Below, in pieces: positions 7,407-56,613 of a stretch of DNA of 64,000 nucleotides. Location of the stretch: positions 608,001 to 672,000 of the forward strand of contig CP000071.1 in assembly GCA_000002445.1 (NCBI GenBank), in the 5' to 3' direction. A model generated the notes under the pieces. That model did not search any database. It saw only the letters and a program-made list of their open reading frames with translations, and had not been told where the DNA came from. The stretch comes from Trypanosoma brucei (Eukaryota). Within the stretch, counting starts at the first letter, position 1. The number at the start of each line of letters is the position of its first letter. The position numbers and the translations under genes were made by a program.

Positions 7407-8278
7407 GTTTGTTATGTTCTGCAGACTACAGAAAAGAGGGTAAAAGTGTTGTCTCATTTTCCGCGGTAGATGACGAAAAACGACAGAAACCATGGATTGA
7501 ACCAATGGGTAAAGAACGCGAGCACCAAACTCATGCATATAAACTTCAATTACAAGCAACGAAATCTACGAGAGGCGTCGACGAGATAGGTGAAAGAGTT
7601 TTAAAAAAAAAAAACGTTTTAAATCGAGCGTCGTCAGTGGACTACGGTTGCGATAGCTCATACAACGACCACTACAGCCGTTGCCGATGTTCCAGTTGCG
7701 GTAAACAAGTGCACAACTCAAAAAATATGCCTCGATGGTCTACACGCCACTAAGCAGTGTGAATGCCAGCAGGTACGCACCTTGACGTTGGCATTGTGCC
7801 CGTGGATTGGGGGCACACGTTAGAACACCATTCTCAGAGTTCTTGTGCTCCCGCGTGTCCTCTTTCTAGTGTAATGCTCACGATGGTGGCACTTACCGCA
7901 GAGTTGCATCGTCCACAAACATCGCTCCTACTCAATTTACCATTTGGCATTTTTGTATACCCCGCCCACTGCGTACTCAGCGGGAGGGCCCACTTTGAAA
8001 GAAGAGCAAAAGGCTCTAAGCCAATCAAGCCCACAATTATGAAGGCGCCACCTTTCGAGCTTCAAATTTAATCCACGCGCAAGTTTGTACCTGCGCGCTT
8101 GCATATAAACAATCTATGGTATAGCGTGGAGGGACACTAAACACCTTTTAGCCACTTTGTTTCTTTTCCCACCTACTACACTGTTTCTATTCTATCAAAA
8201 ACCTAGAGGTTGCTGTCCTCGCTCCCTCGGGTTGCCCAGTGTACGGGCACAAGCGCAATACGTGCTCACTTCCTACCG

Positions 8279-16103: not shown

Positions 16104-18550
16104 CCTGAAGAGGATCTAAATGCAGATTGCAGTGGTAAACGAAAGGAGTTGTTCATTCATAAACACACGTGTATTCACGTACGTATACAGGCCGACAAAC
16201 ATATCCACGGATATGTTCACGTATGCAAGTGCTAAAGAGAATTCATTTTATGAAACGAAAGGACATATTTACAAACAGAACGCTGCACCACAAGGGCAGC
16301 CGCATGAAAGACTCGAGAGTGTCGAAAGAAAGAAAGAAAGGAAACTAACTGTACCGCTCCGGTTTTATTACACAAGCTTGATGTCCAGTAACCACGGTGC
16401 ATGCATCACGCCAACAACACTACCTCACGAACGCCATATTTTCGAGAAGGCCTAACAACAATAAAAGGAGGACCTCCTGCCCAAATCGCAGACGCCGCCC
16501 TACGGTCCAACAACATCAGAAGGGGAGCACCTGTGGTTTCGACCTCCCACGAGGGCCATGGCGGTAGCATCGCTCCGCGACCTTTACATGCAAACGAAGA
16601 ACTTGCGTGTGAGCCAGGTGCCTGGGGAGTGTTGTCCTAGCTGCCTGCCCCCGGGGCTCTGCGCTTACTCACTCCGGCCCCCACGCTGTGTGGCTGGGGG
16701 AGGGGTCGGAGGGCTGACCTGGCCGCCCTTTTATCACTCTCCTCCATCTCCTCCTCCCACTTCCGTTTTGAAACTATCGCCCTGGAAGCGGCGTCGGCGT
16801 TACGGCATGCAAGATCCAAGTCGATCGGAATGCGACTGGGGCGATTCCCAGAAAAAAAAACCAGGCGGCACGAAGTAAAACTTCTTAAACAAAAGGGTCC
16901 CAAAGAGCAGTCAACCAGGTGGGGACATTCAAGATATGGCTTGCGAATGCATTTCTAGGCTAAATATGGAGCCACAGGGACATAATAAAAGCACTAGCTA
17001 GCACAATTTTGATACTTCGGTTGCGCTTGCTTGGTTAACCAGTTGGGCGCGTGGTGCCCGCCAGCTGGTTGGACGGGGTTCTATGGAGTCACCTGGCCGT
17101 CCGTGGAACAACCAAGGGTTTCTGCCCGTTGTACGCGATGCCACCCTTGTGGGGCTCAACTGCCGGGCCCAGTGGCGTTTTTGCTTAGAGATTTCGTCTT
17201 TATAAATGGAGACTCCTGTATCCCCTCCCCACGAGCGGCCGCCGTGGGTTGTGGGCCGAATTGTCGGTGCCCAGCACCCCGTCCTTCGGAATGCACCCAG
17301 AGGTCGTCAATTCCTTTGAGAAGGCTATGTCCGGCCTGGTGGTCGGTGTCCGGCAACCTGATTGGTGGCAGGGTCCGCCGTACTCGCGGAGGGGCACGGC
17401 ATGTACGCCACTTCCTTTGCACAAGCAAGGTGAGTGTTTTTCCCTTGCGTGCCCGTATGTGTTTATCGTGCTCATTTCTTTTTTACGATACTCATTTTTG
17501 TTGGGACAGGGGGGTTGGTGAGTAGATGGGTAGGCCCGTGTGTGGCTGAATAATGGCGTTTGTGTTTTTACCTTTATAGGTAATGTAGGAGGGGAACGAA
17601 TGATTGGACTGAGTTACAATGAAGAAGACTGCTCACTGTTCCGTAGGTGCTAGCGAACCGTGGTTTGAGATGCGTTTTTTTGTTTTTGCGTAGAATTCAA
17701 TTTTCGATGGTTACCGAGGGAGGTCTAGCTGGTGAGCAGTGATCTCGTCGCGACTATTGATGAAAACGACATCAGTTTTATTTTTGTACTTCGCGATCAG
17801 TAGCGTACACCTACGTTATTTATATCTTTATTCCTTTTCGTGGAACCTCGTGAATCCCTTGTGTTTCTGGGGATGGGGTCGTTCCTGCGTTGATGGCAAC
17901 TTGTGGAAGGTTCTTCGTATTTTCAATGATTGACCGTTTTGCGTTTTGATGTTGGGATCTCAGTGCCGAAGAACTGAATGAAGGGAAATCCTTGGACACT
18001 GATAAAGCATATCAATGGTGTTCCAACGGACGGTTAGTCATTTGCCTTTATTGTACATATTCTTTTTTTAAGGTTTGAAAATCTTGGCTGCCTCACCGTT
18101 GAAGTATCAAAGCGGGGCCACATTTGCTTTTGTTACTTATGTTGGATCAGATAGGTTCTGCTGTGTCGGAGCGTTTCACCCCGCCACCGTGCCCGCTTGG
18201 ATGCATGCTTGTCTCCATTGAGTGTGAGAGTCCCAGAAAATAAGGGGTTGGTATATGCTGACGGCACATACCGTTTTTACCTATTCTTTAAAATGTAAGC
18301 AGGGGTTTACCTGTTTCTTACTTACCTATTCTTAACGATGCTGCCTCCTCCCAACGTTGGCCGTGGACATATACTGAAAATATTTTGGAGGAGTGCGCAG
18401 TACAAGATGGAACTTTGGTTGCAGTCCTGCTGATCCATCCATATGCTGTGACAGTGTCAACCGATCTTTTCGGAAAAAGCACGTTGGCTATGACTATTTT
18501 TCATTTGCCATCCCCAACTCTTTTGAAGCCATTGTTGTAATCTAGTCTGC
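16104..18550. promoter_or_regulatory. Divergent strand-switch region between the minus-strand and plus-strand polycistronic units; putative bidirectional RNA Pol II transcription start region
   Basis: All convincing CDS left of 16103 are on the minus strand and all right of 18551 are on the plus strand. The 2.4 kb between has no protein-like ORF. Composition is strand-asymmetric: AC-rich on plus (GT-rich on minus) at 16100-16560, a GC-rich core (>60% GC) with G-tracts at 16560-17430, and GT-rich on plus at 17430-18000. The GT-rich tract lies on the coding strand on each side, consistent with the reported GT-rich Pol II promoter architecture of T. brucei. Confidence 0.6.
16324..16341. repeat. 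(GAAA)4 microsatellite
   Basis: gaaagaaagaaagaaagg read directly. Confidence 0.8.
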
Positions 18551-18988
18551 ATGTTTTCGTTACGGGAGATACTTTCGCAACTTCCCTCCGACGGTGCAAC
18601 TAAATGGATACGGGTTGAGAATGTTAAATCCCCCATGTCAAGTTTGGATGTTTCCCAGTTGTTTCCCGATGCAGTGAGTTGGGATTTTTTGTCGAGTGTT
18701 CAAAGGACAGACTATCTCGTCACTTTTCGGAGTGAATCATTCGCTAGAAAAGCGATGCGAAGTGCATGCGGGTTTTCATACCTTGGTGAGAGGCTCAAGT
18801 TTTCATATGCGGAGCCTGGCGACATTGCAGAAGGCGCATCACCCGCGCGAGTGACAATTGCCCACCCCCGTCTATATTTGCTGCCTCCAGAGTTTTCTTA
18901 TGAGGAGCGAGTAGCTGAAGCAGATCGTATTATTGCATCTGTGAGCACAACCGATTCGTATAACAACGCCTGGGTAGATACCTACTAG
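18551..18988 (+). CDS. Hypothetical small protein (145 aa); first gene of the plus-strand unit
   Basis: ORF track. No recognisable domain. Positioned right after the strand switch. Confidence 0.4.
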   Translation: MFSLREILSQLPSDGATKWIRVENVKSPMSSLDVSQLFPDAVSWDFLSSVQRTDYLVTFRSESFARKAMRSACGFSYLGERLKFSYAEPGDIAEGASPARVTIAHPRLYLLPPEFSYEERVAEADRIIASVSTTDSYNNAWVDTY

Positions 18989-19301
18989 TTGGGCGCACTG
19001 CGGTTACAAGCCGTTTCCCCAATTTTTACCTTTTTGTTTCAATGCGTAACCACTTAATGCAGCAAAAGCGCTTGATCTACTTGTTGAGGCTTATAACCAC
19101 TGTGAATTACGCAATCAAGTAGTATCCACACCAGTCTAAGGTTGAGGTGGCATCTCTACTGTCTACCACTCCCCTCTTTAAAGCTGCCGCTGTTGTTGAT
19201 GTTTTCTCTTCATCTTTGGATACACGGCAAAACAAGTGTGGTTTAGATTATCACTTGCAAGTAAAGAACTTAACTGTGTGTGTTTTTTTAAAGCAACTAA
19301 C

Positions 19302-27331: not shown

Positions 27332-28120
27332 ATGCCCAAGGTAAGCGTCCCACCTAAGACGGAGCGCCACGGGAAGATCGAGGCGCCAGAGACTAATAAT
27401 CCCAAAGTCTTCTTTGATGTGTCTATAAATGAGAAAGCAGCGGGACGGATTGTTATGGAATTGTACGCGGACACTGTGCCGAGGACAGCGGAGAATTTCC
27501 GTGCACTATGCACGGGCGAGAAGGGTCGTGGGAAGAGTGGAAAGCCGCTGCATTACAAGGGGTGCATTTTCCACCGAGTTATACCAGGTTTCATGCTACA
27601 AGGGGGTGACATCACACGTGGAAATGGCACCGGTGGAGAGTCCATATACGGCACAACGTTTCGTGACGAGAGTTTTGCCGGAAAAGCCGGAAAGCATACC
27701 GGACTCGGTTGCCTGTCCATGGCTAACGCGGGACCCAACACCAACGGTTCGCAGTTTTTCATCTGTACAGCCAACACACCGTGGTTGAACGGAAAGCACG
27801 TTGTGTTTGGTCGTGTTACTGAGGGAATTGACGTGGTGAAGAGCATTGAACGGTTGGGTTCCGATTCGGGGAAAACGCGCGGTCGAATCATCATCGCGAA
27901 TTGTGGTGAGCTGCAGACGCAGAAGGAAGGTGCAGCCAAAAAGGAGAAGGTTAAGGCGAAGGAAGGAAACAATGCAGGGAAGCTGTCCACCATTGTCGAA
28001 GGGACCGGTGGAGCAAAGCGTCCACGTGAAGATGTGGAGGATTTGGAAGAACGGAAGAAACGCATCCGAGAGAAGAGGGAGAGGATAGCGAAACTCCGCG
28101 CCCAGGCGGAAGAGAAATAA
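27332..28120 (+). CDS. Cyclophilin-type peptidyl-prolyl cis-trans isomerase with a C-terminal Lys/Glu-rich tail
   Basis: Classical cyclophilin blocks: [93 protein letters not shown]. The catalytic Arg/Phe/Gln/His/Trp positions are conserved. Start chosen at 27332, after the splice signal. Confidence 0.85.
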
Positions 28121-28420
28121 GCGGGAAAAACCGACGTATGGTGGTGCTGTATGAAGGGCATTATCTTGAAATGAACACGCCACGGGGAGGGGGATATCAA
28201 GATCACGTTTAACACTTATTTGATTACTATTTCACCAGGCAACCTTCTTGACCCCTCCTTTTCACCTTAACAGTCTAAAGGAAAAGGATGTGGGAGGCAT
28301 CATCGCGATCGCTTTATTCCCACAGACCCTTTCCCACCTGTGACATCCATCTCTGTCTTTCCCTTTCCTCATCCGCATCATTCCTTTCTTTAGTAAATCA
28401 GATATATCATTGCTGGTCCC

Positions 28421-34644: not shown

Positions 34645-35754
34645 ATGAGGGCCGTCATTCTTGTTGGAGGATATGGCACCAGGCTGCGGCCGCTAACCCT
34701 TACCACACCGAAGCCCTTGGTACCATTCTGTAACAAATCCATAACCCTCCGGCAACTGGAAGCACTCCGTGACGTTGGCGTTACACAGGTGGTGTTAGCG
34801 GTGGCTTATCGGTCAGAGGTGATGGCGGAAGTTACCCAGAAATGGGCACGAGAGCTCGGCATTTCCGTCGTATGTTCCCTGGAGGTGGAGCCACTTGGCA
34901 CCGCTGGGCCGCTGGCTCTTGCTCGGGAGTACCTTTTGCAGGACGACAAACCGTTCTTCGTCTTCAACGCCGATGTTATCTGCACTTTTCCGCTTCAGAA
35001 GCTTCTCGATTTCCATCTGAGTCACGGGAGGGAAGGAACCATTGCGGTGACGAAGGTGAAGGATTGGAGAAAATATGGGGTCGTGGTGCACGACGAGGTC
35101 ACGGGTGCAATCAAGCAATTTGTGGAGAAGCCCCCCGAGTTCGTTGGAGACAGGATAAACGCCGGCATATACATATTTAACAAAAGCATCCTTAACCGCA
35201 TCAAGCTAGAGAAGACGTCCATCGAGCGACAAGTGTTTCCAATGATGGCAAGCGATTCACAACTAAGTGCTTTTCACCTTGAGGGGTTTTGGATGGATAT
35301 CGGTGTGCCAAAGGACTACATAGAAGGTATGGGTAAGTATCTTGATTCACTTGCTGGTACGTCGACCGAAGTGGGGTTCAGCTGTGATGAGCGCAGGGTA
35401 TCCGATCGGAGCTACGTGCTCAAGGGCTGTGTGATGATTCACCCCACGGCGAAAATTGGTGAGGGATCCGTTATCGGTCCGCACGTTTCGATCGGACCAG
35501 GTTGCGTCATTGGGCCCTGCTGCCGCATCCAGCGTACCGCCATACTGGATAACAGCACTGTTGGTCGCGGGACTCTAATAGAGTCCAGCATCGTGGGATG
35601 GAATGGAAGGATTGGTTCGTGGTGCAGGATAGTCAACGATACGGTACTTGGTGAGGATGTCCGTGTGGATGATGGAAAGTACCTGAATGGTGTTAAAGTG
35701 CTTCCAAACAAGGAAATTACCCAAAATCACCCCGAACCAGAAGTGGTCATGTAA
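34645..35754 (+). CDS. GDP-mannose pyrophosphorylase (mannose-1-phosphate guanylyltransferase)
   Basis: N-terminal nucleotidyltransferase motif MRAVILVGGYGTRLRPLTLTTPKPLVPFCNK and a C-terminal left-handed beta-helix with hexapeptide repeats (IGEGSVIGPHVSIGPGCVIGPCCRI). 369 aa is typical for GMPP. Confidence 0.9.
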   Translation: MRAVILVGGYGTRLRPLTLTTPKPLVPFCNKSITLRQLEALRDVGVTQVVLAVAYRSEVMAEVTQKWARELGISVVCSLEVEPLGTAGPLALAREYLLQDDKPFFVFNADVICTFPLQKLLDFHLSHGREGTIAVTKVKDWRKYGVVVHDEVTGAIKQFVEKPPEFVGDRINAGIYIFNKSILNRIKLEKTSIERQVFPMMASDSQLSAFHLEGFWMDIGVPKDYIEGMGKYLDSLAGTSTEVGFSCDERRVSDRSYVLKGCVMIHPTAKIGEGSVIGPHVSIGPGCVIGPCCRIQRTAILDNSTVGRGTLIESSIVGWNGRIGSWCRIVNDTVLGEDVRVDDGKYLNGVKVLPNKEITQNHPEPEVVM

Positions 35755-36202: not shown

Positions 36203-39200
36203 GTGGGTGGTGGCGAAGGTGCCACCCCGCTTCTCTATCAGCTTCATGAGGTGTTGCAGGAAAAACAAGCAGACCGCCGTCTTCAGCTTCTTTGCTTGTT
36301 TCTGGAACATTTCCTGGCTGAGTGCCCAAATGCCGGCGCCGCGCCATTCAAAAAATACTTTGGCACAGGAGCCACGCTTATCGAGTCGCTTGTTTGTTTG
36401 GTTACGTCGCTTATCGAGTCTGTTCTCTTCGGCGCACATGTGCGTGAGGGTGTCACCATGCTGGCGGAGAGTCCTGGTTTCGCAAAGGCCCTTTCTACAC
36501 TGACACTCCTAGGAACGGAAAGTTTCTACAGCACAACTTTGGAATGGAGAAAGCGCGTTACGGATATTATTCACATGACCTCCGATGAACAACTTCCAGC
36601 ACTACTTATGAGGGTATACGATGTACTCTTGCAAGTGTTGCTTGATGACGGAAGGAAGCAGCCGAACTACCTGGAGCTTGCTTCAACAGCTGTTGCTGTA
36701 ATGTGCTTCGTTCATCGGCTGTTCCTACACTACAGGGAAGAACGGCTGTTGTTGGATGAGTATCGCCGCTGGGTATTTCTCCGCGCAGTTGTTCGTACTT
36801 TTGAGTTCACGCTTTCTAATCACTTCGAAGGAAGTGCAGCACTATCAGATGCATCTCGGGGGGTTATTGCTTTGATGTTTTTACCAGATGCAGATTTGAG
36901 CAGACTTTCAGTGGGCGAAGCTGAGTTCAGCGCGGAGGACGCATCTTTTCAACGGGCGCTTCATTTGGCCCATTCGTTTATGCCCTCTGCGAAAGATTTA
37001 GGTGCGTTTTTGGAATGTTTGGTGTGTTGTATCGAAAGTTTGCTAAGCGTTCGTAGTGTCTTGGGCCACCCGGAAGTGGAAACTACAGACTTCGGGGTTG
37101 TGTTTTCAGTTCTTTTCCCTCTTCAAAGTGCTATGGCTCAGCGCTATGAACACGCAGAGAGGCTGTTTCGGTCTATTTGTTCAATAGCTTCCGCGATACG
37201 CGGGCCGCCTTCGGCCACAACATCGTCGGGAACTGCGAAAGGTGTGGCTAATTTCTTCTCTGCAGTCTTCACACCGTCACAGGTTAACACGATACAGCGG
37301 TTTGTAAGCTCCGTTGGTGCATCTGGATCACCGAAGCGTAGTCCTATCACATGTCGCGAGGCTGTGGAATGCGTAACGAGCTTTTTCGTTTGCGCAACCG
37401 AAGAAATGGCTATAGAGGCATGTGCTCGCCCTCTGTTTGACTTGGTTTGTCTTGATGATGTGGAGGAGGAGCTGGTCCGCTTTGTGCTCTATTCATGCAC
37501 CGAAAATCTCCTATTACTCAAACCGTGTCAACTACAACGTGTAACGCAGTTGCTGCTCACCGCCGTAAAGCGCGGCATTGCCATCTCAGAGACCGTTTCC
37601 TCGGTTGCAGCAGTGCTAAGGAAGGAATCCAAAGCGGTGGTTGAGGTGAAGATTTTTGTGCTAGAGTTTCTTAGCTTTTATTCAACGGCAGTAAGTCATG
37701 CATCTGAGGTAGAAACACTGCATAGCGTCTTCAAGTGGACGCTTGAGGAGGTGACATCGATAAGCGACTGGGTCCAACCGCAGGCAGTTTCATATCTGGC
37801 AGCGGTGACGCAATTCGTGAGATCGGCACTCGCATCCGCACCGTTGGTAGCACTACTGGCAAGGCTTGAATGGCCCCACGAGGTGCTGCTTCTGCTGTTG
37901 CGTGCTCATGGTGATGGTGTAAGGGAAGTAGCAGTCACATTTCGGAATCTCTTTTGTTCAATGGTATTCAACGAGGGGCAGTTTGTGGATGTTCTTATTA
38001 GCGAATTGAGGGCAATGGGCGGCCAGAGCCCCTGGCCTTCACAAATTTCCATCCTGTTGTGTGTATTCGTGTACCTGCTGCAGGATAAACGGGGTGCATG
38101 GGCTGCGATAAGAAGTAACGACATCTACGTGTGCCTTTACCTGCTTCACTACCTGGACCAAAGTACCTGCATTGAGGAGGATGCGCATCTTATTGGAACA
38201 TCGTTGGCATTGTTGTTGTCGCACCTGCGGTGGAGTGAAGCTGGAGGAATTGTCGCACACTATGTTGATGCTGTCAGAACCCCTTGGATGGTCCAACTTC
38301 TGGTTGATCTTGCCACAGGGTTTTACACCACCACAAAAAACTTGATTGCTGCCGATGCTATGCGTGTAGAAACTGTAAAAACGATGACGCCGGGCAGTCG
38401 ACTGTGCTGTGAAGTAGTGGGGGGGTTTTCCATACCTTTGTCCTGCCGCTTCGAGCACACCTTTCCTTTTGGTGTGCTTCTTCGTTGGATAGTGGAACCA
38501 GGAAATCAATCCGGCGATTGGCAGAAAAACTTGATGGAGCTCCTATCTGGCATGCTCCACCGCCGCTGCCTACCTCTCGTTGACGACGCGTTCACCTCTA
38601 CGGTGGTGAAACAAAAACTTTATGAGCTGCTTCCATACGTGGCCGATGTTTCGAGAAGGGATGTGCTCGCATTGCTTTCGTCTTCGAAGGAGTATCTAAC
38701 ACTTGAAGATGTCTCGAACGCTCAAGCCATCTGGGAGAGACTAGCATACGGTAGAATCGGGGAAGGTTTGCAGCATGAATTCCACGATTATATCACATGG
38801 TACGGAAACGGCGCATTGCATGGGGTGCTGCGGGGTGTGCAAAAGGGTTGTTCTCTCAACGACCGCTTCACGACGGCTGTGTGGGTGTATTGGGAATCAT
38901 GCATAGGGACGGATACGGGTTCGATGATTCAGCTTTGGGAGTTGCTCTGGCCGGGCGCTGAGGGCTCTACGAAAGTGTCATTGTCGGTTGACACGATGCA
39001 AAGAAAGGTCATTTTTGCAGTTTCCCCGGCGGACGAAGCGCAACAAGTTGTCACCCTTCCCTTCATTCCGCCAGGCCAGTGGATGCACGTAGTAGTGAGC
39101 TTTTTATGCAACCGATTATTTTCCTCCACTGTGACGGCGTTCTACGATGGAGTTCGCACCCTTCAGACCGATATAACCGTACCTGGGTCCCACACATTCC

Positions 39201-42200
39201 TTCCGTACCCTGGAGGCCCCTCATTTATGGCAAGGATTCTCTCTGAAAGCACCTATGATTTCACTTGCACCGTGGGGTTTTCACACGAAGGGAGCTCTGA
39301 GGGCTGCATGCAGCGTTTTGTGTCGTTTCAGCTGTTTAATGCAGCTTTATCACAATTGGAAGTAATGTCGCTTTTTTGTGTGGACCCGTATTCGCTCACA
39401 GGTCTGAGGGCTGCGAAGAGGTGCCCGCTGGAGTTGCCGCTGCTGAGACCAGAGGCGCTGCGGTACTTAGTTGCTAGCGCTGCCCATGGGGAGCTTCAAG
39501 AACTTACTAGCTCAAGAGCGCTTAATTTCGCTCCGTTTCCTGCAGAATTCCTGATATTATCATTACATGTGCAGAACGCGGAGTTGGTCGAGTGCTCCCA
39601 GTTACAGTCCCTCCACAATAAGAGGTGGGTGGTCCCTGACTCTGCGGGGAGAAATGGAGTGACGAACTTTTTATTACACGGCTCACACAGCGAGCCCGTG
39701 GCTACGGGTGGAAACATAACCAAGGTGCTTATCTCACATAACGTCCCCTGCGAGTGGCTGCGCTGGCTTTGTGTAATCTCCTGTGCATACGATGAGGTTA
39801 CAATGCCTAACACAAAAAACGTGCTTGATAGTGCTGACGCGAAGATGGCTGTTCTGCAGAGAATAGCAGCAACGACACTGAGAATAATTGCCACGTATTA
39901 TTGGAAGGCGGAGGAGGTAAGTGACGGCAATGTGGCAATATTCATCAATTATGTAACTCTGCAAGTGAAGCAACGGCCACAGGTTTATCTGGCTACTACG
40001 GACGGGGTGGACGCAGTTTTTGGTCTTGGTGCAGCGAAGGAATCCACAGGTGAGCACTGCGTCGTGTATAACACAGTACCGGTTGAGGACGTCTTTTTTA
40101 ACTGGAAAGTTACTTCGTTTCTCCCGGAGCAGTGTCAACAACGTATTTTGTTTCATCTTACTGCACTCCTACAAAAGAGCAACCCGTTTAGGGCGGTAAA
40201 TGCCTTACGTTTGCAACATTCCAGTTTTTTTGACGGTTTCATATGCGGACTTGTGAGGGAGTATGTATGGCCCCCGGTACTAGAATCCGCTGTTGCTGTC
40301 ATTGCGCTGTACATTGAGTGCATCGCAGGCGATGCTGTTGCGCTCCGGGAGGTTCTCAACTTATGTGCGTCTATAGTTCCCGTGGAGCGTGATGTGCTAA
40401 CCGTTGCCAAGCGCCTTGTGTCCAAGATACCACTGGTAGCATTCGAGTGCATAGTTGTTGTTGTGCTCAACCACCTGCTGAAAGTGCTCTGTGGCGCTTG
40501 TGTCAGTCTCCACAATGAGGGACTAATGTTTGCTGAGGCCCTGTCGCACGCAATGCCGCAGTGCTGGTTTCACATTTTGACGAGTGAGTGGGCACATCCA
40601 GTTTCCGTAACCATGGCGATGCACCTCTTTACTCTTTGTTACAAACGGAGTGAAACGTTTAGAAGACGCTTCGGAGACGTCATCCCTTTATTGTACGAAA
40701 ACTTGCGTCACCACGCACACCAGAGTGACCTGTTGATTGTCCTAATCAGTGGCTTCTGGGGGAGCGACTGGGACCAACAGAAACCTCCATATGCTTTGCT
40801 AAACCAATTGTATACCACTTCTGAAGGGACAGTGCCGTCCTTCTTGCAACTTGCTATGCATCTGCTTGGTAGGAGTGCTTCGTTGTTGCTGCGACCTGAC
40901 GCGGCGGTGAATTACCCTCACATCACATGCGCTTCATTCTACGCTGCGATGGGCGCAGCTGCCACCGCTGAACATTGTAGGGCACGGTCACAACTAAGGT
41001 GCTACATCTCTGTGGTTGTGTTCTGCGCACGGCTGCGTCGGGGACAGAAGATACCCGACGACGGCGCGAATAGAATTTCGTTCACAAAGAGGGAATCGGC
41101 TGATCACGGGGAGATGAGGCGGACTGTAGTTGCCATTTTGCAGTGGGTTGCGCGCAGATACCCGAGCGACCGCCGCGTCTCGAAGGCTATGTACGTTTCA
41201 CAAAAATCATACAACCCAATGGATATGGCGCTGCTTTGTCTGTTTCCCGCATTGCCTATGGACAAGGATGTGGGGAGCGTTGGGAATATGCCGTTGCCTC
41301 TTCTTGACGTGGTAGAGGGTTTAGGAACCACTGTTGGGCATCGAGATATTTTTGATGGAGGCTACTCTGGCACAGGCGGCTTTGACTTCGATGACTGTGA
41401 CGACGAGAGGGAGGAACTAGTCTGTGATGCGCGGGGCCCTAATACCTCACCGGCTACCGAGGCACGGGACTGTGATTTCGATGCTCTACTGCATCAACCA
41501 GAAAGTGAGCTGTACAATGCTTGTCGTGCGCTATTTGTTGCGCACATCAAGCGATACGCACGTAGTGCCAAATGTCAGCCCTTCGTGACGGGTAGGAAGT
41601 CGGTGCGTTCTCCGCCAAAACTCGTGCTCGCGCTGCAACGGGCGCTTGCTCTCTGCCCAAGCGGCATAGGACTCAGGGCAAGATATATGTTCTGTGTGGC
41701 GGTTTGTTGTTTTTGTCTTAAGGCTCTAACGGATATGCTTCGTGAGGAGCAACCTGGTGAGACCGGCCAGTGCGTCCTTGACAACATGGTAGCCACGGGG
41801 AAGTACCTTGCTGATCGGTTGGTAAGCGGGGCCGCTACCCCCACAATGGCGGTGACGAAGTTTTTGCAGCACTTACTCAAGTTACATCTTAACACCGAGC
41901 AAGTCAAAGATTTGTGTGAATCTCTTTCTGAGTGCTTACTTCTTTTAATGGACTCAGTAAGCTGCGGGAGAGATGCTCGGTCCGCAGCATCGGTGATTGA
42001 TTCTCTGCACGACGAGCACATTGGTGTCTTCGGCTACCGGATTCCGTCTGAAGAGCTTCTTCGGTTGACCACGCATAGGTTGTTAGATATTTCAGAGGTG
42101 TTATTAGCCTCAGACGTGGACAGGCATTCCGTTAATATGGAAAAGTTGGTTGGTTTGTGGCGCACATTTTTGGTTGCCAACAGGGAGGTCCCCTTCTTTC

Positions 42201-51960: not shown

Positions 51961-53034
51961 ATGCAGGGCGCGACAGTCAGCGCGCCGAATTTTCGCCCGC
52001 CGACGGAGCTTTTGGATGAAGTACCGCAACCAGAAGGCTCCTCGTGGTGGCTGCAGACAAGTGCCGCACGGCTTCAATCCTTCGAATTACGCATGCTGCA
52101 CGCCATAAAATATAGGCAGGGGTTCGTCGCTGGATTGAACACAATTACGACACTGGGACTGCAACAGAGCGCTGCTAACAGCAGTAAGGAAATCATGGTC
52201 CTGATTCATGGTTTTGCAGGAGGATTAGCCTGTTGGGCACAGAATTGGGAGTTTCTCTCTGAGCATTATATTCTTTGTGCCCTCGATTTACCCGGTTTCG
52301 GCCGAAGTATGCGGCCTAATGTGACTGCAAGAACCCCGAGGGAGGTACTGGATTTTTTCTGTCAGTGCCTTGATGACTGGTTTGGTGAGATGAGGTTCAA
52401 AATTCCTGTCATTTTGGTTGGCCACTCCTTTGGTGCCTATATAGCGGCGCATTATTCCATGCGTCGTGGCCCATCTTGTGTGCGACTGTTAGTGTTTGTG
52501 GATCCGTGGGGTGTAAACAGAAGGGACCAATCTGGATCCAAAAGGGTTCCATTCACGTGGCGCCTCGCCCTCAGTATTGCTAATAGAATGAACCCGCTTA
52601 CACTCGTACGTGCAGCTGGTCCTTTGGGTCCACTTTTCTTCCGGCTAATACGACCGGATTTCGCAAACCGCTGGCGTGGTTATCTGCCGGACCCCGTTAC
52701 CTTCTACGAGTATACATATCACTGCAACGCGCAGCTGCCGCCGCTTGGAGAAGAACTATTTAAGATTTGCTATCATCATGACATTACTGCTAAGGAGCCG
52801 CTGGAAGATGAACTACCATCATCTTTGTCTAAAGATATACCGTTGGTACTGCTGTACGGAAGTGAGACGTGGATGGACGCAGAGCGGGGCACCACCATGG
52901 CCGACAAAATGGAAGGCATGGGTTTCAAGGTGGAAGTAGACACAGTGATGAGTGCAGGCCACCAGGTGTTTACAGATAATCCGTCTGAGTTCAACAACAA
53001 ACTTTTGCTGGCACTTGCTGAGTTGTTGGCCTAA
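51961..53034 (+). CDS. Alpha/beta-hydrolase fold protein (ABHD4/5-like lipase/acyltransferase family)
   Basis: Nucleophile elbow ILVGHSFGAYIAAHY (GxSxG) and an HG oxyanion motif (IMVLIHGFAGG). C-terminal His in MSAGHQVFTDNP. 357 aa. Confidence 0.7.
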   Translation: MQGATVSAPNFRPPTELLDEVPQPEGSSWWLQTSAARLQSFELRMLHAIKYRQGFVAGLNTITTLGLQQSAANSSKEIMVLIHGFAGGLACWAQNWEFLSEHYILCALDLPGFGRSMRPNVTARTPREVLDFFCQCLDDWFGEMRFKIPVILVGHSFGAYIAAHYSMRRGPSCVRLLVFVDPWGVNRRDQSGSKRVPFTWRLALSIANRMNPLTLVRAAGPLGPLFFRLIRPDFANRWRGYLPDPVTFYEYTYHCNAQLPPLGEELFKICYHHDITAKEPLEDELPSSLSKDIPLVLLYGSETWMDAERGTTMADKMEGMGFKVEVDTVMSAGHQVFTDNPSEFNNKLLLALAELLA

Positions 53035-53501: not shown

Positions 53502-54602
53502 ATGTGGGAAGAAACGTACGTACGCGCCTGCGCGAACCTCGGCGTGCAGCCGCGAAATGAGGTTCTTGCGGCTGTGGGTGGCACTGCGCAGTTATGTGGA
53601 AACACATTTGCGAACTTTGAAAACCGCTTAACCGATGAGGAGCTCGCTGCCCTATGCGAAACCTGCCGTCAGATTTCTCTTGTAGCCGTCGTCCGCCTTC
53701 CCTACAATAACATCACTTGTCGGGGCGCGACCGCTTTGGCAAAAGCTATGAAAGAAGGGTTCAGTACACTACAGTACCTTGACTTGTCCTACAACTCTAT
53801 TAATGAAGAGGGTGCAAACGCTATTGCCGCGGCGGCAACTAATTATGAAATGTTGTCAACACTGTTACTAAATGGCAATCCCATTGGCGGTGGGTCAGGT
53901 CCATGTCTAAAGACTCTTCTGGAAAGCGAGAATACCCAACTGGTGACACTTGACCTCGAACAAACTGACCAGGGCTTAAAGTCGCTCGTCCACATTGCGA
54001 GAGGTTTGGTCCACAACACGACGCTCACTACGTTGAACCTTGGCCGCCCCCTCATGACGAACCCGATGGATGTGAGCTACGTCGTGGAGCATCTTTCTCT
54101 CGCCCTGAAAGAAAACCGAACACTACGGTTTTTGGGGTTGAGCCACTTCAATATGGCAGATTGTGATCTGGCATTATTACTCTCTACGCTGCGCGACTCG
54201 GCGGTAACAACACTCTCACTGAAAGGCAACAAATTATCTCAAGCTTCAGGTGAACCTCTCGCCCAACTACTGGCGCACAGGCCTGACTTTCTTTCGCTGG
54301 ACGTAACGGCGAATCGGCTGCGGGATGTCGGCGCACTCGCAATTGCTGCAGTCATCGCCAATCATCCAGGGTTGCGCGAGCTGCAGATTGGCTTTAACAC
54401 AATCGGTGGAGTCGGCATTTCCGCACTCGCTCAGTCGCTGGCGGCAAATGCCTCAATCACTACATTAAAGCTGTGGGGTAATGATCTCACCGATGAGTCG
54501 GTGAGGGACCTATATGCTATACGAGGCCGATTCGAATCGATGGAAGTTACAGACTTCAGTTTCTATGTTGTGGATGGTTGTCCTATGGTGGCAAGGGAGT
54601 AG
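53502..54602 (+). CDS. RNI-like leucine-rich repeat protein with an LRRC45-like N-terminal motif (366 aa)
   Basis: The N-terminus YVRACANLGVQPRNEVLAAV resembles the LRRC45 N-terminal YRRLCEESGAEPQEAVLQQL. It is followed by about 28-residue RNI-type repeats (LDLSYNSINEEGANAIAAA..., LDVTANRLRDVGALAIAAVI..., LQIGFNTIGGVGISALAQSL...). Confidence 0.7.
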   Translation: MWEETYVRACANLGVQPRNEVLAAVGGTAQLCGNTFANFENRLTDEELAALCETCRQISLVAVVRLPYNNITCRGATALAKAMKEGFSTLQYLDLSYNSINEEGANAIAAAATNYEMLSTLLLNGNPIGGGSGPCLKTLLESENTQLVTLDLEQTDQGLKSLVHIARGLVHNTTLTTLNLGRPLMTNPMDVSYVVEHLSLALKENRTLRFLGLSHFNMADCDLALLLSTLRDSAVTTLSLKGNKLSQASGEPLAQLLAHRPDFLSLDVTANRLRDVGALAIAAVIANHPGLRELQIGFNTIGGVGISALAQSLAANASITTLKLWGNDLTDESVRDLYAIRGRFESMEVTDFSFYVVDGCPMVARE

Positions 54603-54994
54603 CGGGGTGATGTAGTAAAGTGTTGAGGAACAAGTAGATTGGGGACCTTACAGGCTTGAGTTTTGTTCTCCAAAGAAAGAAAAGGAGAAAGGAGTTCAGA
54701 AAAGCGGGTCTCCTCCTTAGTTATGTTCCACCCGTGTGTACATTGCGCTGCGCCATACCTGAAGAGGCGGTAGCGTCCCCTCTGGTTGCGTTTTCTCTTT
54801 ACTTTACCTCTAAAGTTGTCTTGGAGACCTTTGTTCTCGTTTTATTCATTACTGATCGTCACTACACTGTCCCATGTGATCCTATTTCTTTTGTGCCTTT
54901 CTCCTTCCTCCCCTGTGAATACTGCCCCCTGCCATCAACTCAGGCCCCTGGAGCTGCTGGTGCTTTCAATATAGTACTTTCCGTTACCTGGTCG

Positions 54995-55010
54995 TATATA
55001 TATATATATA
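54995..55010. repeat. (TA)8 microsatellite
   Basis: tatatatatatatata read directly in the intergenic region upstream of 55075. Confidence 0.8.
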
Positions 55011-55074
55011 TCGTTAGAGGAGGCCCCCCGTCTTGTAGTCGTTCTCTCGGTCCATCTATACTTGCCGTCAAAAC

Positions 55075-56613
55075 ATGTGGACTGTTTTTGCTCCAGATCA
55101 AAATCAACTGTATGCGCTGTATATGCATCGCTGCGGTGCGCATGGCGTTGGCAAGCCGAGTAGGGAGATGCTTGCATTACTCACGGAGGATGACAAGGCG
55201 TGGCAATCGCGAGTGACGGAAGAGGCCCATCAGCGCGGCGTAAAGGTAGAAGATCTACAGGAAATAGAGGGCGATACGGTGGAGCGCCAAAGAGAGCGTG
55301 AGTCGGTTACACCACTGGCATTTCATCGCGTGTTTCGGTTGACCCCTTTCATTGCAAATAACGAGAGGGACGGCTCAGCTGCCCGTATACATGTGGGAGC
55401 TCGTGGGTTGTTAGCTATATTAGACGTGGTTCGTGAGTTACCCTTCCTTGAAGTTCTTGACCTTTCGAACCTCACTTCACTGTTCCTCGCGGACACGTAC
55501 CAGTATGACGGTGTGAAGGGGAACGATGTGATCTCTGCGTTGTGCTCAATAGCCGCGACGCATCCGTCACTTCGAGTGATTGATGTACGGGGCCAACCAC
55601 TCGGAACGTTGGCTGCCCATCATTTTCTAGAGCTACTGAAAGAAAATACCCGTATTCAAGAGGTACACTATGATACCGATGCAGTTGCCTGCCACCTCGT
55701 TGCAGCCATTAACAAACAACAGGAAAAAAACGCTGCCACCCCTCGGCAGCCGCCGAAACTTCCGCAGGAACCTTCGGATATGATACGGCGTATGCCTTTT
55801 CTTGATCGTAAGACCGTTAAAGAACAGCAATTGCTGAGGCGCCTTGTGGAGTCGGAGACCGGCATAGGTGATGTGATGTCTGAGGAGGAGGTCAGCACGT
55901 TTGTGCTGTATGCTCGCACGATGTCCACAACGGAAGTTATTACGCGCAGTAGGGGACTACTCGGCGACGGCATTCACCTATTTCTGCTTAAATCTGGTGT
56001 CATCCGCGCCGCAGCTGAAGCGCGTGGCTTCGAGATGCGTCGTGGTGACTTTTTCGGTGATACACACGGTGACATACTCTTTAGTCAAAATCTTCTTCAA
56101 GAGGTTGAGCGTGGCGTGGTGTACGCCATTCCTATTGAACACTGTGGCGCACTGCGTGCTGTTTGGGCACGCCGTGTGGCTGCACACTATAGCACACTAA
56201 AATACAACACATTGCTTCAAGCAGTCGATGTGTGGACGAGGCTACGCACCTGCTGTTGTTCTGTGTCCCGCGTGTTCGAAGAAGGGGAGGAAGTTATTGC
56301 AAAGGGTGATCCCTTCAAGGGGCTGTTCCTCGTCGTCTCGGGTGTTTTTAGTGTTATTGGCTGTGCAGGTGCTCGAGTAGGTGGGAAGGAATTTACCGTC
56401 GGGGATGCCTTCGGTGAGGAGCCGCTATTGACTAGACGTGAATGCAGCTCTGTGACGATTGTTGCTGGCAAAAATGAAAGCAGCGGTGAGAACTGCTGTT
56501 TAGTTGTGGAGGGGTGTGCGGCTCGAATACTCTTCAATTACCTTCGGCCGGTGCTGCTGACGCTCGTCTCGGCATATTCCCAACATGAGGAACTGCAACC
56601 CGTCCAAAAGTGA
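55075..56613 (+). CDS. LRRC45-like LRR protein fused to a C-terminal cyclic-nucleotide-binding (CAP-family) domain (512 aa)
   Basis: N-terminus LYALYMHRCGAHGVGKPSREMLALL (same motif as its upstream neighbour) plus RNI-type LRRs. The C-terminal 150 aa carry cNMP-binding domain hallmarks (FEEGEEVIAKGDPFKGLFLVVSGVFSV ... GKEFTVGDAFGEEPLL ... VTIVAG). Confidence 0.65.
   Translation: MWTVFAPDQNQLYALYMHRCGAHGVGKPSREMLALLTEDDKAWQSRVTEEAHQRGVKVEDLQEIEGDTVERQRERESVTPLAFHRVFRLTPFIANNERDGSAARIHVGARGLLAILDVVRELPFLEVLDLSNLTSLFLADTYQYDGVKGNDVISALCSIAATHPSLRVIDVRGQPLGTLAAHHFLELLKENTRIQEVHYDTDAVACHLVAAINKQQEKNAATPRQPPKLPQEPSDMIRRMPFLDRKTVKEQQLLRRLVESETGIGDVMSEEEVSTFVLYARTMSTTEVITRSRGLLGDGIHLFLLKSGVIRAAAEARGFEMRRGDFFGDTHGDILFSQNLLQEVERGVVYAIPIEHCGALRAVWARRVAAHYSTLKYNTLLQAVDVWTRLRTCCCSVSRVFEEGEEVIAKGDPFKGLFLVVSGVFSVIGCAGARVGGKEFTVGDAFGEEPLLTRRECSSVTIVAGKNESSGENCCLVVEGCAARILFNYLRPVLLTLVSAYSQHEELQPVQK

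What the first reader, a model, noticed from the sequence alone, without database searches (positions are those of the whole stretch)
53502..56613. Adjacent LRRC45-like LRR paralogs, the second fused to a cyclic-nucleotide-binding domain
Two consecutive genes share an N-terminal motif (YxRxCxxxGVxPxxEVLA) like that of centrosomal-linker LRRC45/RNI-like LRR proteins, followed by RNI-type repeats, so they look like an ancient tandem duplication. The downstream copy replaces the tail with a CAP-family cNMP-binding domain (GDPFKGLFLVVSG ... FGEEPLL). Trypanosome PKA does not bind cAMP, and cAMP effectors (CARPs) remain poorly defined. An LRR scaffold carrying a cNMP-binding domain is therefore a candidate non-canonical cyclic-nucleotide effector, possibly cytoskeletal or flagellar.
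Basis: partly seen in the sequence, partly recalled or inferred. Interest (0 to 1): 0.6.

Follow-up and report, generated by a model that had tools for sequence, protein, structure and literature searches.

The report
Orphan PKA-regulatory-subunit paralogue beside radial-spoke gene
The two neighbouring trypanosome genes are not duplicates of each other: the first is a known flagellar radial-spoke protein (RSP15/LRRC34 type). The second is an uncharacterised relative of the parasite's protein kinase A regulatory subunit that has lost the kinase-inhibiting site and the arginines that normally hold cAMP.

Summary
The window is Trypanosoma brucei-group DNA. Both ORFs exist as described.

**Gene 1** (53502-54602, 366 aa) is 100% identical to chain 3k of the T. 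brucei 96-nm axoneme cryo-EM structure (PDB 9e5c). Its best other matches are LRRC34 and Chlamydomonas RSP15. It is a radial-spoke-type LRR protein, not LRRC45-like.

**Gene 2** (55075-56613, 512 aa) does carry a Pfam cNMP_binding domain (E 6e-10). In fact it has two CNB domains in tandem behind a short RNI-type LRR domain. That is the known architecture of kinetoplastid PKAR1.
- Profile comparison puts its LRR domain with PKAR1-type LRRs (E 7e-37), not with gene 1 (E 6e-9).
- BLASTP against TbPKAR1 gives 1e-16 over 395 residues. Against gene 1 it gives 0.035.
- The tandem-duplication idea is therefore not supported.

Gene 2 lacks the RRxT inhibitor sequence. A Cys sits at the canonical phosphate-binding Arg of CNB-B, and CNB-A has no Arg either. 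It also lacks PKAR1's Ala-to-Glu nucleoside signature, and it is not among CARP1-11.

The family spans Kinetoplastea and is not counted as a PKAR in the latest survey. The most likely reading is an orphan, kinase-uncoupled PKAR1 paralogue. Canonical cAMP binding is unlikely but not excluded. Interest is moderate.

The parts
53502..54602 (+). Gene 1: 366-aa RNI-type LRR protein, the trypanosome RSP15/LRRC34-type axonemal (radial spoke) protein
   Evidence: ORF. Pfam LRR_6 2.3e-17. 100% identical over 366 aa to PDB 9e5c chain 3k. Next best matches are LRRC34 (9fqr_MA, 6.6e-35) and RSP15 (7ju4_l, 1.7e-32). The title of 9e5c is given. Orthologues are named 'leucine rich containing 34' in several Trypanosoma species.
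55075..56613 (+). Gene 2: 512-aa PKAR1-like protein (LRR plus tandem CNB domains, no inhibitor site)
   Evidence: ORF. 100% identical to the T. equiperdum 'cyclic nucleotide-binding domain containing protein'. hhalign with the PKAR1-type family gives E 2.3e-43 over 423 columns. BLASTP with TbPKAR1 gives 1e-16.
55099..55182 (+). N-terminal cap motif QNQLYALYMHRCGAHGVGKPSREMLALL (residues 9-36)
   Evidence: C20 and P28 are conserved in at least 90% of 27 family members. The motif aligns without a gap to the PKAR1-type motif Y..CK..GVKKPN, and with one gap to gene 1.
55183..55380 (+). Helical insertion (residues 37-102) between the cap motif and the first LRR, absent from PKAR1
   Evidence: 39-column gap in hhalign against the PKAR1 type. 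Helices 40-76 in the models.
55381..55737 (+). Short RNI-type LRR domain (residues 103-221, about four strand-helix units) with the PKAR1-specific 'L..aD....GN' insert
   Evidence: hhalign with the PKAR1-type N-terminus gives E 7.4e-37, against 5.9e-9 with the gene 1 family. AF2 model pLDDT 83. Foldseek hits are to tropomodulin/DRC5/NLR-type LRRs at rmsd 2.0-2.5 A over about 115 residues.
55738..55803 (+). Short linker (residues 222-243) where PKAR1 carries about 66 residues including the RRxT inhibitor sequence. No RRx[STAG] is conserved here.
   Evidence: hhalign alignment. Family alignment of the linker.
55804..56202 (+). CNB-A-like domain (residues 244-376). It starts with the invariant DRK[TS] motif, which aligns to the 'PK' start of the N3A helix.
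   Evidence: hhalign. Foldseek hits to tandem CNB domains of PKA R subunits. The family profile matches RIalpha 77-267.
56053..56115 (+). Degenerate cassette of CNB-A: FGDTHGDILFSQNLLQEVERG (Gly-Asp, an insertion, no Arg at the canonical place)
56203..56580 (+). CNB-B domain (residues 377-502), the part Pfam detects. W387 aligns with the RIalpha capping Trp in DKWERL.
   Evidence: Pfam PF00027 at 399-464. phmmer alignment to RIalpha CNB-B. 24 of 28 family members hit PF00027.
56410..56454 (+). Phosphate-binding-cassette equivalent of CNB-B: FGEEPLLTRRECSSV. Gly447-Glu448 are kept. Pro450 sits at the canonical Ala and Cys457 at the canonical Arg.
   Evidence: Residue-by-residue alignments to RIalpha, the PKAR1 type and Plasmodium PKG. 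Family table.

Best explanation
**Shown**
- Gene 1 encodes the trypanosome RSP15/LRRC34-type LRR protein, a structural component of the 96-nm axonemal repeat.
- Gene 2 is not its duplicate. It is a full-length paralogue of the euglenozoan LRR-type PKA regulatory subunit PKAR1.
- The shared features are the same cap motif, the same short RNI-type LRR domain with its peculiar insert, an N3A helix, and then CNB-A and CNB-B.
- The gene 2 family is conserved across Kinetoplastea: Trypanosoma, Leishmaniinae, Phytomonas and Trypanoplasma.
- Compared with PKAR1, gene 2 has lost about 50 linker residues that carry the RRxT inhibitor sequence.
- It has no Arg at the phosphate-binding position of either CNB domain.
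- It also lacks the Ala-to-Glu changes that mark the nucleoside-binding PKAR1/PKAR3 pockets.

**Inferred**
- It cannot inhibit a PKA catalytic subunit in the canonical substrate or pseudosubstrate way.
- It is unlikely to be a canonical cAMP/cGMP receptor.
- It most likely works as a kinase-uncoupled 'orphan' CNB protein.
- The LRR domain would dock it on a partner, as proposed for PKAR1.
- The conserved tandem CNB module would act either as a sensor for a still unknown small ligand or as a ligand-free conformational/scaffold module.
- The adjacency to the radial-spoke gene is ordinary trypanosomatid synteny, not a functional or evolutionary link.
For: **Identity of gene 1**
- 100% identity to 9e5c_3k, LRRC34 6.6e-35, RSP15 1.7e-32. 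Also.

**Gene 2 as a PKAR1 paralogue**
- hhalign, N-terminus against the PKAR1-type N-terminus: score 229, E 7.4e-37, 157 columns. Against the gene 1 family: score 67, E 5.9e-9.
- Full-length family comparison: E 2.3e-43, 423 columns.
- BLASTP with TbPKAR1 P0220: 1e-16 over 395 residues. With gene 1: 0.035.
- The representative search returns diplonemid and kinetoplastid PKAR1-type proteins through the LRR part.

**Tandem CNB fold**
- Foldseek top 25 hits are almost all tandem CNB-A/B domains of PKA R subunits. RIalpha gives TMt 0.70-0.75; TbPKAR and TcPKAR are included.
- The family profile spans both domains of RIalpha and PKG.

**Loss of the inhibitor site**
-. DRK[TS] aligns to the PK motif of N3A, and the lengths agree (about 50 residues to the GDG...SG strand in both).

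**Cassette residues**
-.

**Family breadth and synteny**
-.

**Literature**
- Gene 2 is not a CARP (PMC10354285 Table 1).
- It is not listed as a PKAR. T. brucei has only Tb927.11.4610 in S1 Table of PMC11006142.
Against: - Function is inferred from sequence only. No localisation, binding or phenotype data were found.
- The cassette of CNB-B is poorly modelled (pLDDT below 50 for residues 449-458), so the pocket geometry is unknown.
- Loss of the Arg alone does not abolish cAMP action in RIalpha, and sequence did not predict the PKAR1 ligand (PMC6440977).
- The canonical Ala position is kept (Ala in most Trypanosoma, Pro in T. brucei), so there is no Glu clash with a cyclic phosphate.
- Leishmania PKAR3 binds PKAC3 with an imperfect inhibitor motif lacking the first Arg (10.1101/2023.11.08.566240). 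A non-canonical contact of the conserved DRKT-V with a kinase is therefore not excluded.
- Strong conservation of the structural Gly residues, FG(E/D), E449, W364 and W387 suggests a functional pocket rather than a dead one.
Confidence: 0.65

Rival explanations
1. Gene 2 is a non-canonical cAMP/cGMP effector: the CNB-B domain binds a cyclic nucleotide, and the LRR scaffold relays this to cytoskeletal or flagellar partners.
For: - Pfam cNMP_binding above the gathering score.
- Gly447-Glu448 and a small residue at the canonical Ala position are kept in Trypanosoma.
- W387 aligns with the adenine-capping Trp260 of RIalpha.
- Two basic residues (R454, R455) lie just upstream of the Arg column.
- An RIalpha R333 mutant still responds to cAMP (PMC6440977).
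Against: - The canonical Arg is Cys457 in all ten sequences of alignment A1 (the T. brucei protein plus nine orthologues, Trypanosoma and one unnamed trypanosomatid), and C/S/T/V/Q in most of the wider family.
- The Glu after the Gly is V/I/A in Leishmaniinae and Phytomonas.
- CNB-A is degenerate.
- The two proven T. brucei cAMP binders, CARP1 and CARP11, keep the Arg (R320, R520). Gene 2 did not appear among CARP1-11 in the cAMP-resistance RNAi screen (PMC10354285).
- Its closest relatives, PKAR1 and PKAR3, do not bind cAMP (PMC6440977, PMC11006142).
Confidence: 0.12
2. Gene 2 is a genuine PKA regulatory subunit, as some T. cruzi records name it. It would hold a catalytic subunit through a non-canonical contact, for example the conserved D-R-K-T-V (Arg at P-2, Thr at P0, Val at P+1).
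For: - Full-length homology to PKAR1.
- The source name 'protein kinase A regulatory subunit' for T. cruzi orthologues.
- The DRK[TS] motif is nearly invariant in 28 sequences.
- PKAR3 binds PKAC3 although it lacks the first Arg of the motif (PMC11006142).
Against: - hhalign places DRKT on the PK motif that opens the N3A helix, not on RRxT. The distance to the first beta strands fits that placement.
- P-3 is an invariant Asp, which is unfavourable for PKA recognition (established PKA consensus R-R-x-S/T).
- The Thr is Leu in P0010.
- The published survey of kinetoplastid PKARs does not include this family.
Confidence: 0.1
3. Genes 1 and 2 arose by tandem duplication of one LRR gene, and the downstream copy later captured a CNB module.
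For: - Adjacent, same strand, and both begin with a similar cap motif followed by RNI-type repeats.
- The adjacency is conserved in Trypanosoma, Porcisia and an unnamed trypanosomatid.
Against: - The gene 2 LRR is 28 orders of magnitude closer to PKAR1-type LRRs than to gene 1. It shares with PKAR1 an insert that gene 1 lacks.
- The homology to PKAR1 continues through both CNB domains.
- There is no gene 1 homologue near the gene 2 homologue in L003 and L004.
- Conserved gene order is the rule in trypanosomatid polycistronic units (established knowledge).
Confidence: 0.03

Closest known systems
Kinetoplastid PKAR1 (T. brucei Tb927.11.4610, 499 aa), the cAMP-independent, nucleoside-activated PKA regulatory subunit
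   Same: Same order of parts: cap motif C-xxx-GV-xx-PN, a short RNI-type LRR domain with the 'Y/F..D.....GN' insert, an N3A helix, CNB-A and CNB-B. The canonical Arg of both cassettes is replaced. Similar length.
   Different: - Gene 2 lacks the RRTTV inhibitor sequence and about 50 linker residues.
- It has a 65-residue helical insertion after the cap motif.
- It keeps Ala/Pro where PKAR1 has the ligand-switch Glu.
- Its CNB-A cassette is much more degenerate.
- It has Trp, not Tyr, at the RIalpha W260-equivalent position.
- Only 23% identity.
Leishmania/T. cruzi PKAR3 (LdPKAR3; TcCLB.510879.50)
   Same: A divergent kinetoplastid PKAR paralogue with tandem CNB domains lacking the Arg. It serves mainly as an anchoring subunit (PMC11006142).
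   Different: PKAR3 has no LRR domain, keeps an inhibitor-like RGAIS motif, and binds PKAC3. It is absent from T. brucei, whereas the gene 2 family is present in T. brucei.
CARP1 (Tb927.11.16210) and CARP11 (Tb927.7.2320), the kinetoplastid cAMP-binding proteins
   Same: Kinetoplastid proteins with CNB domains that are not kinases or channels.
   Different: Their functional CNB domains keep the cassette Glu and Arg and bind immobilised cAMP. They have no LRR domain and were hits in the cAMP-resistance screen. Gene 2 lacks the Arg and is not a CARP (PMC10354285).
Chlamydomonas RSP15 / mammalian LRRC34 (radial spoke 2 stalk)
   Same: Gene 1 matches them over its full length (residues 23-361 against LRRC34 74-411; 48-360 against RSP15 3-322). 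It is itself resolved in the T. brucei axoneme structure.
   Different: Gene 2 shares with them only generic RNI-type LRR similarity.
Mammalian PKA RIalpha
   Same: Tandem CNB-A/B fold (Foldseek TMt 0.70-0.75). W387 aligns with the capping Trp260.
   Different: Gene 2 has no dimerisation/docking domain, no RRGAI inhibitor site, and no R209/R333 equivalents.

Membership tests
CNB / CAP-family cyclic-nucleotide-binding domain (Pfam PF00027) | Profile match above the curated threshold and the beta-barrel fold | tested here: met
   PF00027 at 39.3 bits against a gathering score of 27.5, residues 399-464. 24 of 28 family members match. Foldseek hits to CNB domains.
CNB / CAP-family cyclic-nucleotide-binding domain (Pfam PF00027) | Cassette Gly-Glu that binds the ribose 2'-OH | tested here: inconclusive
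   G447-E448 are present in T. brucei CNB-B, and G328-D329 in CNB-A. The Glu column is V/I/A/H/Q in many family members, whereas the next residue, E449, is conserved.
CNB / CAP-family cyclic-nucleotide-binding domain (Pfam PF00027) | Cassette Arg that neutralises the cyclic phosphate (R209/R333 of RIalpha) | tested here: not met
   Cys457 aligns with R333 in three independent alignments. No Arg at the equivalent place of CNB-A.
CNB / CAP-family cyclic-nucleotide-binding domain (Pfam PF00027) | Measured binding of cAMP or cGMP | not testable with these tools
   Needs recombinant protein and ITC or cAMP-agarose.
PKA regulatory subunit, kinetoplastid PKAR1 type | N-terminal RNI-type LRR domain homologous to that of PKAR1 | tested here: met
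   hhalign E 7.4e-37, 157 columns, cap motif included.
PKA regulatory subunit, kinetoplastid PKAR1 type | Two CNB domains in tandem with N3A and alphaB/C helices | tested here: met
PKA regulatory subunit, kinetoplastid PKAR1 type | Inhibitor (substrate or pseudosubstrate) sequence RRx[S/T/A/G] in the linker | tested here: not met
   The linker is 22 residues with no conserved RRx[STAG]. The PKAR1 segment carrying R(R/K)xT has no counterpart.
PKA regulatory subunit, kinetoplastid PKAR1 type | Ala-to-Glu substitutions in both pockets (nucleoside specificity) | tested here: not met
   Pro450 (Ala in other Trypanosoma) aligns with E435 of TbPKAR1, which is A326 of RIalpha (PMC6440977).
PKA regulatory subunit, kinetoplastid PKAR1 type | Forms a holoenzyme with a PKA catalytic subunit | not testable with these tools
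   Needs co-purification.
RSP15 / LRRC34 radial-spoke LRR protein (gene 1) | Full-length sequence similarity to RSP15 and LRRC34 | tested here: met
   9fqr_MA 6.6e-35, 7ju4_l 1.7e-32, 8j07_w 2e-27. Source names 'leucine rich containing 34'.
RSP15 / LRRC34 radial-spoke LRR protein (gene 1) | Physical component of the axonemal 96-nm repeat | tested here: met
   100% identity to PDB 9e5c chain 3k. Entry title 'Cryo-EM structure of 96 nm repeat of microtubule doublet from T. brucei flagellum'.
RSP15 / LRRC34 radial-spoke LRR protein (gene 1) | Position in the stalk of radial spoke 2 | not tested
   The coordinates of 9e5c were not inspected.
LRRC45 (centrosomal linker) | N-terminal LRR followed by a long C-terminal coiled coil; best reciprocal similarity to LRRC45 | tested here: not met
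   Gene 1 is LRR from end to end and best matches LRRC34/RSP15. The C-terminal half of gene 2 is two CNB domains. No LRRC45 sequence was available for a direct comparison. The coiled-coil feature is from general knowledge.
CARP (cAMP response proteins of T. brucei) | Knockdown gives resistance to PDE inhibitor NPD-001 (RIT-seq hit) | tested here: not met
   None of CARP1-11 is 512 aa. The only chromosome 8 entry is CARP9, at 385 aa (PMC10354285 Table 1). Chromosome 8 for the window is inferred from snoRNA TB8Cs3H1.

The most novel reading that the evidence does not exclude
Gene 2 defines a third, kinase-independent branch of the kinetoplastid PKAR family. It would be an orphan tandem-CNB receptor whose conserved but non-canonical pockets (G-x-E...C-S-S, capping Trp) bind a ligand other than cAMP, for example a purine nucleoside or another metabolite. 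Its LRR domain would compete with or complement PKAR1 at the same docking site, giving the nucleoside/cAMP signalling network of trypanosomes a second, non-kinase output.
Probability: 0.2. Interest if true: 0.65.

Novelty: new variant of a known kind. Interest (0 to 1): 0.35.

Why it matters
Trypanosome PKA is the textbook exception to cAMP control, and published surveys credit T. brucei with a single regulatory subunit, PKAR1. A second PKAR1-derived protein exists that is conserved from Trypanoplasma to Leishmania and Trypanosoma. It has lost the kinase-inhibitor site, yet it keeps a conserved tandem CNB module.

It is a natural candidate 'orphan CNB receptor' of the kind the PKAR1 authors predicted. 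It could explain some PKA-independent effects of nucleoside analogues, or act as a decoy for PKAR1 docking sites.

The finding also corrects two attractive but wrong readings: the link to LRRC45, and tandem duplication with the neighbouring radial-spoke gene.

Tried and rejected
1. **Tandem-duplication origin.** Rejected by pairwise BLASTP, hhalign comparisons and lack of linkage in distant loci.
2. **DRKTV as the PKA inhibitor site.** Considered because of R at P-2 and V at P+1. Rejected as the main reading because hhalign and the spacing put it on the PK motif of the N3A helix, and P-3 is an invariant Asp.
3. **Gene 2 as a CARP.** Rejected on protein lengths and gene identifiers.
4. **Gene 2 as a chain of the T. 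brucei or L. tarentolae axoneme structures.** No identical or CNB-containing chain of 9e5c or 9y6s matched.
5. **AFDB fold search.** Intended to recover the UniProt entry and the PKAR1 models. The library was not available.
6. **Literature.** The last three are not held. No paper on this gene was found, and the TriTrypDB gene number could not be established.
7. **Alternative cassette alignments** that would place E456 or S458 at the Arg column. None supplies an Arg.

Full report
**Origin and layout**

The window is from a Trypanosoma brucei-group genome. Both predicted proteins are 100% identical to T. equiperdum/T. brucei records. The window also carries two copies of the trypanosomatid snoRNA TB8Cs3H1.

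All ORFs of 200 aa or more from 19 kb to 58 kb lie on the + strand, apart from a few minus-strand ORFs that are probably spurious (27553-28215, inside a plus-strand ORF, and 46301-46999). This is as expected for a polycistronic unit.

The finding covers two consecutive ORFs: 53502-54602 (366 aa) and 55075-56613 (512 aa). Upstream lie a cyclophilin, the V-ATPase proteolipid subunit and an alpha/beta hydrolase.

**Gene 1**

- Pfam finds RNI-type repeats (LRR_6, 2.3e-17).
- A sequence search of the PDB finds a chain identical over all 366 residues: 9e5c chain 3k, 'Leucine-rich repeat protein (LRRP)'.
- The next matches are an orthologue in 9y6s, bovine and human LRRC34 (6.6e-35 and 2e-27) and Chlamydomonas radial spoke protein 15 (1.7e-32). 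All match over nearly the full length.
- The entry titles show that 9e5c is the 96-nm repeat of the T. brucei flagellar doublet microtubule and that 9y6s is the Leishmania tarentolae equivalent.
- Several Trypanosoma records already call the orthologue 'leucine rich containing 34'.
- LRRC34 is regarded as the RSP15 orthologue, a radial spoke 2 stalk protein (PMC10721216).

Gene 1 is therefore a known axonemal protein of the RSP15/LRRC34 type, not an LRRC45-like centrosomal linker.

**Gene 2: what is confirmed**

Pfam reports cNMP_binding at residues 399-464 (E 6.3e-10, 39.3 bits, above the gathering score of 27.5). Orthologues at 55-69% identity occur throughout Trypanosoma.

A profile search of 1.8 billion representatives finds about two dozen full- or near-full-length relatives. 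They include:
- Phytomonas and Leptomonas;
- Porcisia;
- the parabodonid Trypanoplasma (Cryptobia) borreli;
- several sequences on metagenomic contigs whose dense single-strand gene arrangement looks kinetoplastid.

Of 28 members, 24 hit PF00027. The family is thus an old, conserved kinetoplastid gene, not a lineage-specific fusion.

**Gene 2: architecture**

An AlphaFold model (pLDDT 74) shows N-terminal helices, alternating short strands and helices from 103 to 221, a linker, and two beta-rich domains.

Foldseek against the PDB returns, almost exclusively, tandem CNB-A/CNB-B modules of PKA regulatory subunits. These include RIalpha (TMt 0.70-0.75), Plasmodium and Toxoplasma PKA-R, and the T. 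brucei and T. cruzi PKAR crystal structures. The family profile aligns across both CNB domains of RIalpha and of PKG. So there are two CNB domains, not one.

A separate model of residues 1-235 (pLDDT 83) matches short RNI/tropomodulin-type LRR domains, DRC5, NLR LRRs and axonemal LRR proteins. The fit is 2.0-2.5 A over about 115 residues.

**Whose paralogue is it?**

The representative search also returned proteins of about 490-516 aa that matched the LRR part and the CNB parts. They carry R(R/K)xT followed by two CNB domains with the cassette changes typical of trypanosome PKAR1. They include diplonemid sequences named PKA regulatory subunit.

Profile-profile comparison is clear:

| Comparison | Score | E-value | Columns |
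|---|---|---|---|
| Gene 2 N-terminus (1-225) vs PKAR1-type N-terminus | 229 | 7.4e-37 | 157, end to end |
| Gene 2 N-terminus vs gene 1 family | 67 | 5.9e-9 | 167 |
| PKAR1 N-terminus vs gene 1 family | 90 | 5.8e-13 | 142 |
| Gene 2 family vs PKAR1-type family, full length | 336 | 2.3e-43 | 423 |

The third row shows the level of similarity expected between any two RNI-like domains.

The match to PKAR1 includes the cap motif without a gap. It also includes an unusual insert ('L..aD.....GN') that gene 1 lacks.

The real T. brucei PKAR1 (P0220, 499 aa) was recovered with a further search. It aligns with gene 2 by plain BLASTP at 1e-16 over 395 residues, from the first LRR to CNB-B. Gene 1 against gene 2 gives 0.035 over 40 residues.

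Adjacency of the two genes is conserved in Trypanosoma, Porcisia and an unnamed trypanosomatid. In two more distant loci no gene 1 homologue lies within 8 kb of the gene 2 homologue.

The tandem-duplication reading is therefore rejected. LRR plus CNB is the known PKAR1 architecture (PMC6440977; PMC11006142).

**How it differs from PKAR1**

1. *No inhibitor sequence.* In the alignment, the nearly invariant D244-R245-K246-T/S247 motif falls on the 'PK' motif that opens the N3A helix of CNB-A (FEKS in TbPKAR1, PKDY in RIalpha). The distance to the first beta strands is the same in both, about 50 residues. The PKAR1 segment of roughly 50 residues that holds RRTTV has no counterpart. The 22-residue linker of gene 2 has no conserved RRx[STAG].
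2. *Extra helices.* A 65-residue helical insertion follows the cap motif.
3. *Altered cassettes.*
   - CNB-B reads F446-G-E-E-P-L-L-T-R-R-E-C457-S-S-V.
   - Alignments to RIalpha, the PKAR1 type and Plasmodium PKG all put Cys457 at the phosphate-binding Arg (R333).
   - The same alignments put Pro450 (Ala in other Trypanosoma) at A326, the position that is Glu in PKAR1 and PKAR3.
   - Across 27 family members the Arg column is mostly C/S/T/V/Q. The Glu after the Gly is often V/I/A, while the next residue, E449, is conserved.
   - CNB-A has FG(D/E) followed by an insertion and no Arg.
   - The pockets are therefore neither of the cAMP type nor of the PKAR1 nucleoside type.
   - Still conserved are the structural glycines, F327, D444, W364 and W387. 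W387 aligns with the RIalpha capping Trp.

**Mechanism**

Shown: homology, architecture, the missing inhibitor site, and the cassette substitutions.

Inferred: without an inhibitor sequence the protein cannot occupy the active-site cleft of PKAC as R subunits do. Without the Arg it is unlikely to bind cAMP or cGMP with the usual affinity.

My best reading is a kinase-uncoupled, PKAR1-derived orphan CNB protein. Its LRR domain docks it to a partner. Its tandem CNB module is either a sensor for an unidentified ligand or a ligand-free scaffold.

Caveats:
- The cassette of CNB-B is poorly modelled.
- An RIalpha R333 mutant still responds to cAMP.
- The PKAR1 authors stress that sequence did not predict ligand specificity (PMC6440977).
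- PKAR3 binds PKAC3 with an imperfect motif.

**Comparison with what is known**

- The cAMP-resistance screens define CARP1-11. None is 512 aa, and the cAMP-binding members CARP1 and CARP11 keep the Arg (PMC10354285).
- The most recent survey of kinetoplastid PKARs lists only Tb927.11.4610 for T. brucei, and PKAR1 plus PKAR3 for T. cruzi (S1 Table of PMC11006142). The gene 2 family has therefore not been treated as a PKAR.
- Some automatic T. cruzi annotations do call it 'protein kinase A regulatory subunit', and T. brucei-group records call it a CNB-domain protein.
- I found no paper on it in ten searches. Three potentially relevant papers are not held, so prior description cannot be excluded.

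**Verdict**

- The cNMP-binding and LRR domains are real.
- The LRRC45 assignment and the tandem-duplication origin are wrong.
- The architecture is not new.

What remains of interest is an uncharacterised, kinetoplastid-wide PKAR1 paralogue without an inhibitor site. It is a new variant of a known kind, of moderate interest (0.35).

Noticed in passing
window 46057-46119 and 47719-47781 (+), within the AT-rich stretch 46-50 kb: Two equally scoring copies (80.5 bits) of the H/ACA snoRNA TB8Cs3H1 (Rfam RF01550) lie 1662 bp apart, in a region of GC 0.40-0.42. This looks like a tandemly repeated snoRNA cluster. The family name points to T. brucei chromosome 8.
   Followed up: partly
window about 16100-19200: Divergent strand-switch region. 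Nearly all ORFs of 200 aa or more are on the minus strand up to 16103 (the one exception, 8157-8867 +, lies inside a minus-strand ORF). From 19236 almost all are on the plus strand. GC skew changes sign at about 16 kb.
   Followed up: no
window 36203-45307 (+): A 3034-aa protein with a BEACH domain (Pfam PF02138, 7e-102) and a weak Laminin_G_3 match. A GDP-mannose pyrophosphorylase-like gene lies just upstream at 34645-35754.
   Followed up: no
window 51961-53034 (+) versus L001 4772-6001: An alpha/beta-hydrolase gene sits between the V-ATPase proteolipid gene and gene 1 in T. brucei. In Porcisia hertigi no gene is called in the syntenic interval, where ATP-synt_C is followed directly by the 366-aa LRR gene.
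   Followed up: no
proteins P0093, P0102, P0113, P0116, P0119: Proteins of unnamed origin, apart from one from the diplonemid Hemistasia, have a PKAR1-like LRR domain followed by very degenerate CNB-like regions and no DRKT motif. They match only the LRR part of gene 2. The LRR-CNB architecture seems to have diversified repeatedly in Euglenozoa.
   Followed up: no
P0007 (T. vivax orthologue of gene 2), alignment A1 columns 506-569: A 60-odd-residue acidic insertion lies inside CNB-B, just after the cassette strand. It shows that this loop tolerates large inserts, as CARP11 does within its CNB domain (PMC10354285).
   Followed up: no
PDB 9fqr (bovine sperm 96-nm repeat): The bovine sperm axoneme structure contains a PKA RIalpha chain. 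A regulatory subunit as a fixed axonemal component is therefore known in mammals. No CNB-containing chain of the T. brucei (9e5c) or L. tarentolae (9y6s) structures matched gene 2.
   Followed up: partly
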